DNA of 63,936 nucleotides, counting the filler, from Octopus bimaculoides (taxonomy: Eukaryota), in NCBI RefSeq assembly GCF_001194135.2. It is 7 parts of 5 records of this genome, joined end to end, with 100 filler letters (N's around TTAATTAATTAA, not from the genome) between each part and the next. Parts side by side here need not be neighbours in the genome. Positions count along the whole stretch, not along the records: positions 12,191 to 23,599 come from NC_068991.1; positions 23,700 to 36,458 come from NC_068982.1; positions 36,559 to 51,309 come from NC_068989.1; 4 more parts are not named here. One strand, written 5' to 3'. A program made the position numbers and the translations under genes. Within the stretch, counting starts at the first letter, position 1; the number at the start of each line of letters is the position of its first letter. Below the pieces are notes generated by a model. The model saw only the letters and a program-made list of their open reading frames with translations, did not search any database and was not told the DNA's origin. Shown here one piece after another: positions 21,119 to 50,645 of the stretch.

Positions 21119-21168
21119 GTTAACAAAAGGTTTCGGCTGATATACCTTCCAGCCTCCATCATGTGTCT
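21119..21168 (-). ncRNA. Degenerate minimal type I hammerhead ribozyme
   Basis: GACAC-(a)TGATG(g)-a-GGCTG gaaggtatat CAGCC-GAAAC-(c)TT-ttGTT. Stem II is a perfect 5 bp and GAAAC is intact; there are two core mismatches plus stem III and stem I mismatches. Confidence 0.55.
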
Positions 21169-21211
21169 TGGGAAAATTTCGAACCTGGGTTCTCAATCCT
21201 AAGGTATTTTC

Positions 21212-21270
21212 CGAACTCTGAATCTTAGGGTTAGTAGTCCACGTTCTTAATCACTACGCTATATGCCCGT
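21212..21270 (-). ncRNA. tRNA-like segment (Pol III A box, partial B box) within the Penelope 3' region
   Basis: GACGGGCATATAGCGTAGTGATTAAGAACGTGGACTACTAACCCTAAGATTCAGAGTTCG. TAGCGTAGTGA fits TRGCNNARYGG at 10/11, there is an anticodon-loop-like CTACTAA, and GAGTTCG starts a B box. Confidence 0.55.
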
Positions 21271-21839
21271 CGGCGATTACGGAGTGAATTTTTAGAGCTT
21301 ATAAATCAAATATTTTCCTATCCTTCCTTAATACCGGTTCCTATATGCTATTTATATCTGCACTCGGTCTGCTTAGGAGGTTGTTGTGTCCTAGCATATG
21401 TGCTGCTTCTTTCCAGTAGTGTTCTCTGTCTATTATTTGAACTTCATCCCACAGGGGGAGGTGGTCTCCACTTTTCCATACATGATCAGCTATATCTGAT
21501 TTATCAATTTCTCCTCGTGTCACAGCTTTGCGATGTTCCTCTACCCTTATTTTGAAGGGCCGGCATGTTTCGCCTTTATATAACCAACCACAGAAGCATG
21601 GGATGGAGTACACGCAGTTTTTGGTTATATTCTCTTCTATTAGTGGTTTTACTCGAAGGAGATATTTGCGAAGTGTTGTATTACTCTTGAATACTGTCCT
21701 GATGTCATATGGGCCGCATATCTTCTGTATCTTTTCGGGGAGGCCTTTCACATAGGGTACACAGACTGTATACAGTTTATTGGTTTTATCCTCTCTTTTC
21801 TTCATAATTGAAGTAGATAGTATGTTTTGGGGCTAGTTG

Positions 21840-22110
21840 TTGCAACAACTCCAAAACATTCTATCATATGTAAATAAAGCATTTTGTATTTTCCCTCGAA
21901 GCTGATCAACAGTACGTGGATTGTAACCGTATACCAGATTTGTTTCATACTCCCCAAAGAAAAAGTCACATGGGGTGAAGTCGGGCGACCGGGCTGACCA
22001 TTCAACTGGCCCTCTTCGTCCAATCTACGCGCCAGGAAAATTGTCTTCCAGCCACTGCTGGACTGGCAATGAATAATGTGGATCTCCCATTGATCTCTGA
22101 GTTATTGATC
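21840..22110 (-). pseudogene. Tc1/mariner transposase C-terminal fragment, DD41D (rosa/Visitor)-like
   Basis: Manual translation gives PHYSLPVQQWLEDNFPGA*IGRRGPVEWSARSPDFTPCDFFFGEY...PRTVDQLRGKIQNA. The reconstructed spacing from the degraded second D to the third D is about 41. Confidence 0.75.
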
Positions 22111-22328
22111 GAAAGACTTTAATGCTATGCTGCGTTACATTACAAACACCTTATACATACATACACACACACACACACATCATATATATATATATGTACA
22201 TCTAGATATGTATGTATATTCGTACATATGTATGAATTCATGCACGTATATACAGGTATATGTTTATATATGTTTATCAATGAATATGTGTGTGTGTGTG
22301 TGTGTGCGTGTGTGTGTGTGTGTGTGTC

Positions 22329-22372
<44 letters not shown>

Positions 22373-22715
22373 CTTTGGATGGAATTTATGAAAATTTAAT
22401 GCCTCACTACGCGCTTTCCAGAATCACACTTCTCTTAAGATCATACACCGTATTCTTGGTTTCAATTATAGTATAGTGCGTAGTATCCGTGGGCAGTGGG
22501 TTGATCATTTTCATGAATTCATTTTTTTTCTGGCGATATAACATTAATATATGCTGAACAGAGGTATGCCTATCCCTTTTGACCAGTGCGAAGGTTGATT
22601 GAGTTATGTGTATTTAGTGGAGAGGAAGGGAAGGTGATGGAAAGAGAGGAATGAATAGTAGTCATATGCGGATGGAGGTGTGTGACGTGTTGGACTAATT
22701 TTGCTATTTCTGCAG

Positions 22716-22760
22716 ATGTCAAGGATGGGTGGTACATTCCTTTCTACGATCTCATTTAAG
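22716..22760 (+). CDS. Candidate 45-nt exon
   Basis: Acceptor TTTTGCTATTTCTGCAG and donor AAG/GTATGA; two frames are open (MSRMGGTFLSTISFK or CQGWVVHSFLRSHL). I recognise no homology. Confidence 0.2.
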
Positions 22761-22974
22761 GTATGACTTTCTTCAATGAATTCCGAATTAAACAGGCCAA
22801 TTGGTAAGCTACTACAGCCATTAGCCGTTGAGGTTTATTGTCTGAAATGATAAATGATACTTTTTTTAAGGTCATCTTTTAATTGTTTCTGTTGGTGTAG
22901 TGTATAGCATCATAAATATTGGCTGGTCTGTTTGTTTACTTGTTTGCGTTCCTTCTGTTGTTCTATAATATACT

Positions 22975-47773: not shown

Positions 47774-47839
47774 ACATATATATATACAGATATATATGTA
47801 TACATATATATACATATACATGTATATATACGCACACAT

Positions 47840-47874
<35 letters not shown>

Positions 47875-47877
47875 CAT

Positions 47878-47922
<45 letters not shown>

Positions 47923-47929
47923 GAACGGG

Positions 47930-49580
47930 ATTTATATTATATATATATATGTGTGTGTGTGTGTGTGAGTGTGTATGTGTGTGTGTGAGTGTATGTGTGT
48001 GTGTGTCAAAAAATTATAACGGCCATATTTTTCAACTGATTTTCTCCAAACTGGGAACATACATTTCTCATGTTTCAGGAATGGTTTTAGACTCATAAGA
48101 CTATTCACATAATGAGTAACGGGCGCAGTAAACACCCGTTCCTGGGTTATGTGGAGAATGGAGATAGCACTTTGTGCTTTCAGAAATTGATTGTCTTCCT
48201 TATATCTGTTGGTCATAAAAACAAAATTGCTTTTTATATTAGATTCACGTGTTTCAAAGCTTTTTTTTAAATATTAACTTCCGGTTTTCTAGCGCTAGTG
48301 ACGTCTATATATCTCTATCTATCTCTATATCTCTCTATCTCTATCTTTATCTCCCTATCCATCTCTATCTCTATAGCTATCTGTGTATATCTTATCTATA
48401 TCTATCTTATTTGTCTAACTTGCTTCGCTCTCTTTCTCTCCCTCTTCCTATATCTCACTCTCTATTGTTTTCACTTTCATTTTTCAGACGTTATTGTTTA
48501 CACTTTGTTCAATCGCTATTTTTTCACTGTAAGTTTTCAATCGTTATTTACAAACAACAACGGCAAATTACTGACAGAAAGAAGTTCACAATTAAATAAT
48601 TCACAAATACGTAATTTACTGGCAGAATTAACTTCATAAGTTTCACTTCAATCCATACACTTCATTAAATTTGCCTACAAAATTCTTATTTACTTGTGCA
48701 ACGTTTTCTGTTTTGATTGTTGTTGACGGAGTCCATAATTTACTGACAGAAGTAACTCCAAAATTTTCACTTAAATCCGTACACTTAGAAAATTTCCCTA
48801 AAAATTTATTATTTACTTGTGCAACAGTTTGGATTTTTCTGTTGTTAACAGCATTTTTCTGGTTCCTTCGATACTGGCTCTTTGGCTTACTAAGTGACAA
48901 ATTTCGTTTCAACCCATACAATTCTTTATTTTCCGTAAAAATTTCTTATTTAATTTCTGCCTGTTGTATTAAGAAATATAATTTCCGTTACCCAGTTATT
49001 TTCATTGAATACTATCTTCTGCACCCGTGTTTTTCTATATACGTATATAACCATGCCTAGAAGGAAATTGTCAAATTTGTCTACAATGTCAAGGTCAGCC
49101 AAAAGAATGTCTCTGTTCAGGGAAAGAGAGAAAGCTGCAGAAAGGGAAGCATACCAAGAAACGAACAGACTGTGCACTACAAAAGCTAGATAATCTCAAA
49201 ATGATGAACAGTGGCATGCACGGCTGACAAGGAATAGGATCTCCATTGCAGAACGAAGAGCAGTTGCAACAGCTCAGAGAAGCAACTTCTATGAAGCAGC
49301 TTTTACTTATGATCCACCAGTTCATTATGCAGATGAAACTAGAGTTTCCATTGGTGCAATGGCAACTGAGTGCATACATTGTAAAGCGAGGAAGTGGCGT
49401 GGAGAGACACCTGCACCGTGCTACAATAGTAAGAAGGTTAAAATCCCTGTAATCCCCCAACCTCCAGAGGCATTGAAGAAACTATTGTCATCGACTGACC
49501 AAGATTACAAGCACTTCCGAAACAAAATTAGACAATACAAGGCTGCACTGCTTATGACATCATTTGGATCCACAAGAGAT
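47930..49580 (+). mobile_element. Helitron 5' part with RepHel N-terminus
   Basis: A microsatellite-rich 5' region with GGCCATATTTTTCAACTGATTTTCTCCAAACTGGG, then about 124-bp direct repeats at 48612-48849, then the coding region. Confidence 0.75.
49053..49580 (+). pseudogene. Helitron Rep/helicase N-terminal fragment (one in-frame stop at 49191-49193)
   Basis: AAFTYD...IGAMATECIHCKARKWRGETPAPCYNSKKVKIP..PQPPEALKKLL...HFRNKIRQYKAALLMTSFG is the conserved zinc-finger-like block upstream of the Helitron Rep domain. Confidence 0.88.
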
Positions 49581-49677
49581 TTAATATATATATCTCATAT
49601 GTATGTTAGTGTATTTGTACGTGTGTGTGTATATATATATATATATGTGTGTATATGCGTGCATATGTGTGTGTGTG

Positions 49678-49736
<59 letters not shown>

Positions 49737-49904
49737 GTAATTTATGTATATATTAATATTATCTCAGTTTTAAAAAGAGACCTTTGATAATGTAAATATG
49801 TTAATAGTTACCGGAGGTAGCAAAATTACACTAGAAACGAAGATATCACAGCCGTTTTACAGGTAGAGATACCAAGTTAAAGTGATACATTTTGAGAAGA
49901 TATG

Positions 49905-50645
49905 AATAATAATAATAAATGGAGCAAAACGCATATAAATAAAAGTTCCTTTAATTCCTACATATGTTTCAAAATATATGAGAGAGCTCTTCTACAAAGA
50001 AGTAAGAGCTGCTGGAATTCCTTATATATTCCTCTTCAGGGAATCCATAAATAAACATCTGAAAGCAAGACAAATACGAAATAATATCCGTATAATAATA
50101 TAATAATATAATATAATATAATATATTACTAGGCTATGATGTTTTATTTATTTTTCTTCACTTTCTTCACTTCATATAAATATGTAACTAGTTTTCCTTA
50201 TATAGTATATGTTTAATTTGATGTACTCCCTTAGTTCTCTCCCTTCCTCCATTTTGACTCAGCAATTATCCTCCCCACATTTCAATCATTCATTTAATTT
50301 AAACCTTTAGCACCACGTTTACAACCCCCTCCCTTTATATCTCTATGTAAACAAGCGTTCTTATTCCTAAAGCCCATGGAATAATATCATTGATCTCTAT
50401 ATATCTCTATGTAAACAGACGTTCTAACGGTCACTGACCATGTAACATCTTTGCTCGTAAGTTACCTCATCATTTCGTATTTGTCTTGCTTTCATATGTT
50501 TATTTATGGATTCCCCGAAGAGGAATATATGAGGAATTCCAGCAGATCTTACTTCTTTGTAAAAGGGCTCTCATATATTTTGAAGCATGTGTAGGAATTA
50601 AAGGAACTTTTATTTATATGCGTTTTGCTCCATTTATTATTATAT
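49905..50645. repeat. About 180-bp inverted repeat with a hammerhead in each arm
   Basis: Arms 49905-50090 and 50470-50645 are over 90% identical by eye, with a spacer of about 380 bp. Confidence 0.92.
49953..50046 (-). ncRNA. Type I hammerhead ribozyme with intact core and extended stem II
   Basis: GATTCC-CTGAAGA-GGAATATAT[47 nt]ATATATTTT-GAAAC-ATAT-GTA-GGAATT. Stem I is 6 bp, the stem II base is 9 bp (2 GU) and stem III is the palindrome ACATATGT. Predicted cleavage is between 49959 and 49958. Confidence 0.8.

What the first reader, a model, noticed from the sequence alone, without database searches (positions are those of the whole stretch)
21119..50645. Four unrelated hammerhead-bearing Penelope-type families in 30 kb, mostly in fold-back structures
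Seen: type I hammerhead motifs at 21119-21168, 27251-27310, 36884-36939 with 37141-37194, and 49953-50046 with its inverted twin near 50505-50596. The four share no flanking sequence, and where readable their stem III is a short palindrome (ACTC-AA-GAGT, ACCGGT, ACATATGT). Three loci are long inverted repeats and two sit next to GIY-YIG coding remnants. Established: Penelope-like elements carry minimal hammerheads in their pseudo-LTRs, palindromic stem III implies dimer cleavage, and inverted 5' ends are common. Inference: several ribozyme-driven non-autonomous (retrozyme-like) families are abundant in this genome and repeatedly seed self-cleaving, dsRNA-forming modules into introns or intergenic DNA.
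Basis: partly seen in the sequence, partly recalled or inferred. Interest (0 to 1): 0.8.

Follow-up and report, generated by a model that had tools for sequence, protein, structure and literature searches.

The report
Decayed Penelope retroelement tails with hammerheads
These four spots are likely the leftover tail ends of a known class of jumping gene (Penelope-like elements), three with an upside-down partial copy beside them; five of their six self-cutting-RNA motifs are damaged, and the one intact motif has an unusually long arm shared by its family, but whether it cuts is untested.

Summary
The motifs, their palindromic helix III and three long inverted repeats are at the stated places, and the four units are unrelated to each other. 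But only 1 of 6 motifs (49953-50045, minus strand) has an intact core with all three helices. Rfam and the published minimal descriptor find none. Locus 1 is a 5'-truncated Penelope/Poseidon element, shown by its endonuclease. Locus 2 fits the Hydra clade by its protein tail and hammerhead type (compared by eye). Loci 3 and 4 have no coding DNA but show the known pattern of a main copy plus an inverted 5'-truncated copy. Reads and contigs from 4 runs (3 organisms) restore the two core bases lost in the right twin of locus 4, so that family is real and its 60-62-nt helix II is a family trait. The retrozyme reading is not supported: there are no tandem arrays, no joint from the 3' end back to the start, and no RNA ends at the cut site. 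Twins lie on opposite strands, so a read-through RNA holds one sense ribozyme, predicted to be buried in double-stranded RNA. Verdict: ordinary Penelope-like debris with one mildly interesting long-arm variant.

The parts
21044..21841 (-). Locus 1: 5'-truncated Penelope/Poseidon-type element (endonuclease end plus 3' tail); the 3' boundary is approximate
   Evidence: tblastn of RT-bearing relatives covers 21841-21317 at up to 66% identity; sequence
21344..21832 (-). GIY-YIG endonuclease remnant (VYS..CxC..YKG, R, H, H, E), with a 5-residue deletion near its end
   Evidence: 12 longer relatives, E 2e-69 to 8e-25, 7 of 12 listed with PF00078; RVT_1 confirmed in P0001 and P0009; alignment. The fragment itself has no Pfam hit
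21119..21168 (-). Decayed minimal hammerhead: 5-bp helix II intact; four departures from the minimal consensus (positions 3, 9, 16.2, 1.1)
   Evidence: score 18.6, chance level alone; its translation lines up without gaps with the N-terminus of full-length relative P0009 (7 of 16 identical; 23 of 2000 shuffles reach the score; BLASTP E 4.3)
21816..21865 (.). Short palindrome centred on the 5' truncation point of locus 1 (about 25 bp inverted duplication)
   Evidence: self-blast; protein homology starts at 21841
27255..27303 (-). Locus 2 hammerhead: both boxes exact, 4-bp helix III ACUC/GAGU, 3-bp helix II, helix I broken; about 25 nt from an (AT)n run
   Evidence: the same helix III is listed for 5 Hydra-clade families in File S2 of PMC8557442
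27953..28165 (-). Decayed endonuclease C-terminus, Hydra-clade pattern (WSI..Y..[CxxC lost]..K..CxH..LL), one internal stop
   Evidence: phmmer hits P0013 (E 6e-14) and P0014 (E 8e-4; keeps CxxC); pattern compared by eye with Fig. S7 text of PMC8557442; no RT-bearing relative found
28174..28523 (+). Inverted partial copy of the locus-2 tail (matches 27482-27795); stops short of the hammerhead and abuts another retroelement fragment
36706..37137 (-). Locus 3 main copy; hammerhead at 36886-36939 with exact boxes and 7-bp helix I but broken helix II base; 3' end on (AT)n
37138..37366 (+). Locus 3 inverted 5'-truncated copy; hammerhead at 37140-37195 with 8-bp helix I and intact helix II but G12 read as A
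   Evidence: score 34.6, above all 30 shuffle maxima; fold z -2.3, 2 of 200 shuffles as good
49900..50085 (-). Locus 4 inverted 5'-truncated copy
49953..50045 (-). The only intact type I hammerhead: 6-bp helix I, CUGAAGA, 9-bp helix II base with a 62-nt insert, GAAA, ACAUAUGU, predicted cut after 49959
   Evidence: fold energy alone is not unusual (z -0.1)
50131..50653 (+). Locus 4 main copy, non-coding, with an internal 32-nt repeat at 64-nt spacing; twin hammerhead 50509-50599 with U4 and A15.1 lost; 3' end on (TA)n; start uncertain (50086-50131)

Best explanation
The four loci are likely independent, 5'-truncated insertions of four different Penelope-like retroelement (PLE) families, each carrying the hammerhead motif of the parent's 3' tail as a passenger. 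Inferred mechanism: the element's GIY-YIG endonuclease nicks AT-rich or (TA)n DNA on both strands, its reverse transcriptase copies from the RNA's 3' region and usually stops early, and two copies primed on opposite strands (or one folding back) meet head to head, leaving an inverted repeat whose arms share the 3' end (loci 3, 4). In the parent the hammerhead would cut tandem precursor RNA, as a dimer through the palindromic helix III or with protein help. In these copies it is decaying: shown here are defects in 5 of 6 motifs and the opposite-strand geometry; predicted is that read-through RNA pairs the one sense ribozyme with the antisense arm.
For: Locus 1 endonuclease is 54-67% identical to the C-terminus of longer proteins, most with RT. 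Locus 2 matches Hydra-clade protein tail, helix III and (TA)n target. At loci 3 and 4 both arms end at the same 3' point and the inverted arm begins within about 40 nt of helix I. Loci 2, 3 and 4 each end on or near (TA)n. Locus-4 family: 50516 reads T in 41 of 41 and 43 of 43 RNA reads and in 99-100% of contig depth in three contig sets; 50585 reads A in 69 of 70 and 56 of 58 reads and over 99% of depth; summed depth rises from 2,646 at the 5' end to 414,181 near the 3' end in run X3. Precedents read here: dual hammerheads 100-700 bp apart on opposite strands (PMC4209133); inverted 5'-truncated copy as a standard PLE form, and Penelope-13_HM with a hammerhead on each strand (PMC8557442). Fold-backs pair 171-173 of 180 and 191-196 of 233 arm bases.
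Against: No coding link was found for loci 3 and 4, so their PLE status rests on anatomy. The locus-2 clade call is by eye; two searches for longer relatives found none. The locus-1 motif alone is at chance level and its support from P0009 is weak (p about 0.01, codons not seen). No target-site duplication was established. Only locus 4 was tested for copy number and conservation (1 of 4 loci); 61 of 101 difference rows were not shown, and one X3 contig (depth 2,129 of 6,759) has an extra base inside the first box. The one related locus fetched from metagenomes (L001, 41% identity) has no hammerhead by my descriptor.
Confidence: 0.82

Rival explanations
1. The locus-4 family (possibly also locus 3) is a non-autonomous, PLE-dependent element of about 0.5 kb that spreads on its own, as solitary retrozyme- or SINE-like units, with a working long-arm hammerhead.
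For: No ORF in 50060-50480 in six frames; core bases restored across 4 runs and 3 organisms; very high summed contig depth over the 3' core; a second helix-II sequence that by eye still forms a hairpin (loose end before 50572 in 49 reads, 13 and 9 contigs). Monomeric retrozyme copies are described in bioRxiv 2026.07.22.740005.
Against: No tandem copy in the window. The 3 joints listed are internal (50370-50438, 50372-50329, 50500-50572); none returns from the 3' end. Depth falls steadily toward the 5' end as for truncated copies. The family continues to the edge of the stretch laid (50135), so a longer parent is possible. Locus 2 shows that PLE tails in this genome can be about 700 nt long and non-coding.
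Confidence: 0.13
2. The fold-backs are active modules that cut or silence host transcripts.
For: Long duplexes are predicted on both strands (-300 to -538 kcal/mol); one copy has an intact core; family sequence is present in RNA (341 of 12.9 million records read).
Against: Five of six motifs are defective. A read-through RNA has only one sense twin, predicted paired. In RNA run X22 no place has many molecules beginning or ending, depth is level across the predicted cut (70/59 before, 68/58 after), both mate directions are about equal, and many reads share variants absent from DNA contigs, as expected from one or a few decayed copies inside host RNAs. A>G differences are no more common in RNA (8) than in contigs (6, 8, 6). 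Ordinary RNA-seq loses 5'-OH ends and small circles, so this is weak.
Confidence: 0.04
3. The motifs at loci 1 and 2 are chance matches inside real PLE tails.
For: Scores at chance level on the graded scan; no Rfam support; no second copy in the window.
Against: Each lies where a PLE hammerhead is expected, downstream of an endonuclease end and near the 3' end. Locus 2 has exact boxes plus the Hydra-type ACUC/GAGU helix (10 of 200 shuffles give even one such hit). Locus 1 keeps register with P0009.
Confidence: 0.08

Closest known systems
Penelope/Poseidon-clade PLEs with minimal hammerheads (Cervera and De la Pena 2014, PMC4209133; PAc of Frangieh et al. 2024, PMC11167929)
   Same: C-terminal GIY-YIG with CCHH, hammerhead in the terminal repeat with an extra base after box 1 and a G-C first pair of helix II (locus 1), palindromic helix III, truncated solitary copies, twin motifs on opposite strands 100-700 bp apart.
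   Different: No motif in the window passes the published minimal descriptor as I coded it. The copies are decayed, and no direct pseudo-LTR pair or RT is present.
Hydra-clade PLEs (Craig et al. 2021, PMC8557442, Fig. S7, Files S1-S2)
   Same: CxxC..E..N..CxH endonuclease tail, hammerhead with 3-4-bp helix III (ACUC/GAGU, ACA./.UGU), (TA)n target, inverted 5'-truncated copy with a hammerhead on each strand (Penelope-13_HM). A family from Octopus bimaculoides is listed.
   Different: The listed Hydra-1_Obim hammerhead differs in sequence from all four motifs here. All Hydra motifs in File S2 have short helix II and loops of at most 10 nt, while locus 4 has a 60-62-nt insert.
PLE-X1_sMoe hammerhead of Selaginella (File S2 of PMC8557442, marked as deviating)
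   Same: 9-bp helix II with a long loop 2 (about 35 nt) in a PLE hammerhead.
   Different: Plant, endonuclease-lacking, rDNA-targeted element; the locus-4 insert is longer and holds an inner hairpin plus near-copies of both helix I strands.
Non-LTR retrozymes (Cervera and De la Pena 2020, PMC7229834; bioRxiv 2026.07.22.740005)
   Same: Type I hammerhead, low GC, non-coding unit of a few hundred bases (locus 4), PLE kinship.
   Different: Retrozymes are head-to-tail tandem units expressed as circles; these are solitary or head-to-head, and two carry endonuclease remnants.

Membership tests
Penelope/Poseidon PLE (locus 1) | GIY-YIG endonuclease C-terminal to an RT in one ORF | tested here: met
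   Met in the relatives: fragment matches the C-terminus of P0001 and P0009, which carry RVT_1. This copy is cut off before the RT.
Penelope/Poseidon PLE (locus 1) | CCHH motif present, CX2-5CxxC linker absent | tested here: met
   CxC inside the core and two later His are invariant; no cysteine cluster upstream; definition from PMC8557442.
Penelope/Poseidon PLE (locus 1) | Hammerhead in the terminal repeat | tested here: inconclusive
   Right place and register with P0009, but four departures and a chance-level score.
Hydra-clade PLE (locus 2) | CxxC and CxH flanking the conserved E and N of the endonuclease | tested here: inconclusive
   CxH and spacing fit; CxxC is lost in the window but kept in relative P0014; by-eye comparison only.
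Hydra-clade PLE (locus 2) | Canonical hammerhead near the 3' end and (TA)n target | tested here: met
   Exact boxes, ACUC/GAGU helix III, (AT)n 25 nt downstream; helix I is decayed.
Hydra-clade PLE (locus 2) | RWK and DKT motifs of the RT | not testable with these tools
   No RT in this copy; no longer relative found.
PLE, clade open (loci 3 and 4) | Inverted 5'-truncated copy at the 5' end, sharing the 3' end | tested here: met
PLE, clade open (loci 3 and 4) | Link to an RT/GIY-YIG ORF | tested here: inconclusive
Type I hammerhead (49953-50045) | CUGANGA, GAAA, UH and three helices, conserved across copies | tested here: met
   core restored and G.U-to-A-U changes at 50509 and 50523 in the family
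Type I hammerhead (49953-50045) | Self-cleavage at the UH site | not testable with these tools
   No pile-up of RNA ends in one RNA-seq run, which is not a sensitive test.
Minimal PLE hammerhead (published descriptor) | Helix II 3-7 bp, loop 3-10 nt, GAAANNUH | tested here: not met
   Descriptor text from the supplement; 0 hits on either strand of the window.
Rfam hammerhead families | Match at gathering score or with a significant E-value | tested here: not met
Non-LTR retrozyme | Head-to-tail tandem units, each with a type I hammerhead | tested here: not met
   No tandem copy of any of the four units in the window; no 3'-to-5' return joint listed for locus 4 in 4 runs.
Non-LTR retrozyme | Abundant small circular RNA | tested here: inconclusive
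   One standard RNA-seq run, 6% read, shows low coverage and no back-joint; small circles may be lost in such libraries.

The most novel reading that the evidence does not exclude
The locus-4 family is a very abundant PLE-dependent element whose hammerhead carries a conserved 60-62-nt helix II extension that hides it from standard searches and acts as a switch: the insert holds near-copies of both helix I strands and an inner hairpin, which would keep the ribozyme off until a partner RNA or the element's protein binds. A large class of animal hammerheads would then be uncounted.
Probability: 0.18. Interest if true: 0.55.

Novelty: new member of a known kind. Interest (0 to 1): 0.24.

Why it matters
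As a whole it matters little: PLE tails with decayed hammerheads and inverted partners are described, and this window is a dense sample of them. The useful part is locus 4. Its family keeps an exact catalytic core around a helix II several times longer than the published descriptor allows, and neither Rfam nor that descriptor sees it. This suggests that hammerhead counts in such genomes are too low, and it offers a natural construct for the open question of what PLE hammerheads do (PMC8557442 calls their function unclear; PMC11167929 found one to be protein-assisted and dispensable for insertion in vitro).

Tried and rejected
Rfam: whole window at E up to 5 gave 252 matches, of which 150 were shown, none a hammerhead; four loci and 29700-30050 singly, none; gathering score, none. 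Pfam on 9 window fragments: no GIY-YIG hit. Locus-1 protein against viral contigs: 0 of 7 candidate stretches; alignment against metagenome contigs: 1 of 105, uninformative. A 26-nt locus-4 motif against prokaryote genomes and viral contigs: 0 and 0. Longer relatives of the locus-2 peptide: none; protein atlas: no usable hit; cluster look-up gave no names. Run search: no RNA holder listed as such; raw RNA runs were added by species label. Fold energy does not single out the intact motif (z -0.1), so it was not used as support. Summed contig depth is not a copy number by the tool's own warning; I use only its 5'-to-3' trend. Rejected: twins as cis dimer partners (opposite strands); the locus-2 inverted repeat as a hammerhead fold-back (motif lies outside); the mariner-like remnant at 37489-37869 as the cause of the locus-3 repeat (it lies outside both arms). 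Lunse et al. 2016 on dimeric PLE hammerheads is not held, so I cannot exclude that long-helix-II variants are described there. Searches for a long or extended stem II in this setting returned 0 papers; octopus or cephalopod plus hammerhead returned no description of these families.
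Full report
SETTING. The window is AT-rich animal-type DNA (37% GC, 6,288 N), full of microsatellites and transposon fragments. I found no host gene, so 'intron or intergenic' stays open.

ARE THE MOTIFS THERE? All six are at the stated places, pointing as follows: 21119-21168 (-), 27255-27303 (-), 36886-36939 (-) with 37140-37195 (+), 49953-50045 (-) with 50509-50599 (+). 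Rfam sees none. A strict type I descriptor finds only 49953-50045 (0 of 25 shuffled windows at the stricter setting). A graded score ranks them 41.3, 34.6, 28.6, 23.7, 18.6 and under 18, against shuffle maxima of 22-34 in 30 shuffles. So 49953 is far beyond chance, 37140 just beyond, and the twins are validated by each other. The motifs at loci 1 and 2 need context. The four units are unrelated.

LOCUS 1. The ORF at 21344-21832 (-) matches the C-terminus of 12 longer proteins at 54-67% identity; two of them were scanned and carry RVT_1. The alignment shows the GIY-YIG core with CxC inside and two His, and no upstream zinc finger, which PMC8557442 gives for Penelope/Poseidon. Homology starts at 21841, the centre of a 50-nt palindrome: a 5' truncation with a short inverted duplication. 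The hammerhead 170 nt downstream keeps a 5-bp helix II but departs from the minimal consensus at four places. Read in frame it gives THDGG..PKPFVN, in ungapped register with TPDDG..PKRCVN at the start of the full-length relative P0009. Those residues can be encoded by intact boxes, the differing residues fall at the damaged places, and an ORF that starts inside its hammerhead is described for PAc. The statistics are modest (23 of 2000 shuffles) and P0009's DNA was not seen.

LOCUS 2. The peptide at 27953-28165 (-) hits two unnamed proteins, one of which keeps a CxxC. By eye it follows the Hydra-clade tail in Fig. S7 of PMC8557442. The motif 700 nt downstream has exact boxes and the ACUC/GAGU helix III listed for 5 Hydra families, with the extra U before GAA common in that clade; helix I is broken. 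The element ends about 25 nt later near (AT)n, the Hydra target. The inverted arm (28174-28523) copies the middle of the tail, not the hammerhead.

LOCUS 3. A main copy on the minus strand (about 37137-36706) and an inverted copy (37138-37366) are 80% alike and share the 3' end; the inverted copy starts at helix I. The left motif has lost the base of helix II; the right has lost G12. Each has what the other lacks, so the parent most likely had a complete motif with ACCGGU (inference from two copies).

LOCUS 4. The same design: main copy on + (50131 or earlier, to 50653) and an inverted copy (50085-49900), 93% alike. The left motif is intact; the right has lost U4 and A15.1. Laying one raw RNA run and three contig sets (three coded organisms) on 50135-50635 showed T at 50516 in 84 of 84 reads and 99-100% of contig depth, and A at 50585 in 125 of 128 reads and over 99% of depth. 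None of the 40 difference rows shown touches another core base; 61 rows were not shown, and one contig has an insertion in box 1. Changes at 50509 and 50523 turn G.U pairs into A-U. At 50546, 50562 and 50566 most contig depth agrees with the left copy and completes the inner hairpin, so the 60-62-nt helix II is a family trait. A second insert sequence appears in loose ends before 50572 and by eye also folds into a hairpin. Depth rises about 150-fold toward the 3' end, as truncated copies or diverged subfamilies would give. No joint returns from the 3' end. In RNA, 341 of 12.9 million records were laid, both directions equally, with no pile-up of ends and level depth across the predicted cut; many reads share variants absent from the contigs, which points to one or a few decayed copies inside host RNAs. 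Folding puts the hammerhead form 1.7-2.8 kcal/mol above a rival fold, helix II at 8% in the isolated motif, and the palindrome duplex at -7.0 kcal/mol: a dimer- or protein-dependent ribozyme at best (prediction).

HOW IT WORKS. Shown: truncated tails, shared 3' ends, AT-rich ends, decayed motifs, one conserved family. From papers: PLEs carry such hammerheads, often as solitary truncated copies or as twins on opposite strands; monomers do not cleave and dimers cleave weakly; an inverted 5'-truncated copy is a standard form; the PAc protein cuts and extends both strands at AT-rich DNA and its ribozyme is protein-assisted and not needed for insertion. Inferred: priming on both strands gives the head-to-head arms, and the hammerhead comes along because it sits near the 3' end. 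The geometry argues against function here: a transcript through a fold-back has one sense motif, predicted to be paired along nearly the whole arm.

COMPARISON AND NOVELTY. Works like: PLE tail hammerheads. Membership: locus 1 Penelope/Poseidon (met through relatives), locus 2 probably Hydra, loci 3 and 4 PLE by anatomy with clade open (locus 4's helix III and target resemble Hydra). Not retrozymes on the tandem test. The long helix II escapes the published descriptor, but a PLE hammerhead with a 9-bp helix II and a 35-nt loop is already listed from Selaginella. I therefore score new members of a known kind, interest 0.24.

WHAT I READ. PMC4209133: parts 1-2 of 4 and supplement passages (file 1 could not be searched). 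PMC8557442: passages, section 11, supplement part 2 and search hits. PMC11167929: parts 1-2 of 4. bioRxiv 2026.07.22.740005: part 1 of 5 and passages (supplements closed). PMC7229834, PMC6765202, PMC13282606, PMC8967140, PMC6962438: passages. Lunse et al. 2016: not held, known only through the review's passage; it may bear on the novelty of the long arm. Earlier scan notes from other genomes agree with this reading; they were seen last and are not evidence.

Noticed in passing
window 29844-29894 (+): A further hammerhead-like motif not in the finding: 7-position helix I with one mismatch, box 1 one base short, GGG/CCC helix II, GAAAC..GUC. Score 28.3, reached 0.3 times per shuffled window; no Rfam hit; no second copy in the window.
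   Followed up: partly
window 27027-27200 (-): Just beyond the (AT)n end of locus 2 lies another repeat-like stretch with a heavily decayed hammerhead-like arrangement near 27100-27140; it does not reach the listing threshold.
   Followed up: no
window 36937-37040 and 37426-37527: A direct repeat of about 100 nt (86% over 98 nt): a third fragment of the locus-3 unit's upstream part lies tail to tail with the inverted arm.
   Followed up: partly
window 37041-37137 (-): Two reading frames together give RSEL..H..FSVK, faintly like a Hydra-type protein end upstream of the locus-3 hammerhead; not tested, may be chance.
   Followed up: no
window 37489-37869 (-), 23209-23571 (-), 21842-22130 (-), 61719-62114 (+): Tc1/mariner-type transposase remnants; only 23209-23571 has a Pfam hit (Transposase_1, E 6e-5); the others are named from recalled motifs.
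   Followed up: partly
window 49194-49586 (+): ORF fragment that resembles the N-terminal part of a Helitron RepHel protein (recalled motif; Pfam gave no such hit), 300 nt left of locus 4.
   Followed up: no
window 28777-29238 (-) and 42948-43493 (+): Gag/ORF1-like retroelement fragments; the first has a weak zinc-knuckle hit (E 0.008) and abuts the locus-2 inverted arm.
   Followed up: no
window 50330-50425 (+): Internal 32-nt repeat at 64-nt spacing in the locus-4 tail; other copies skip or add a unit (joints), so its number varies within the family.
   Followed up: partly
window 18128-18504 / 46400-46790, 47062-47622 / 59439-60011, 45214-45424, 58642-58692: Other dispersed inverted pairs and palindromes from self-blast, unrelated to the hammerhead loci; several short SINE-like repeat families recur across the window.
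   Followed up: no
window 30922-30985 (-), 32693-32743 (-), 53742-53805 (+): Exact hammerhead boxes with incomplete helices; within chance expectation singly.
   Followed up: no
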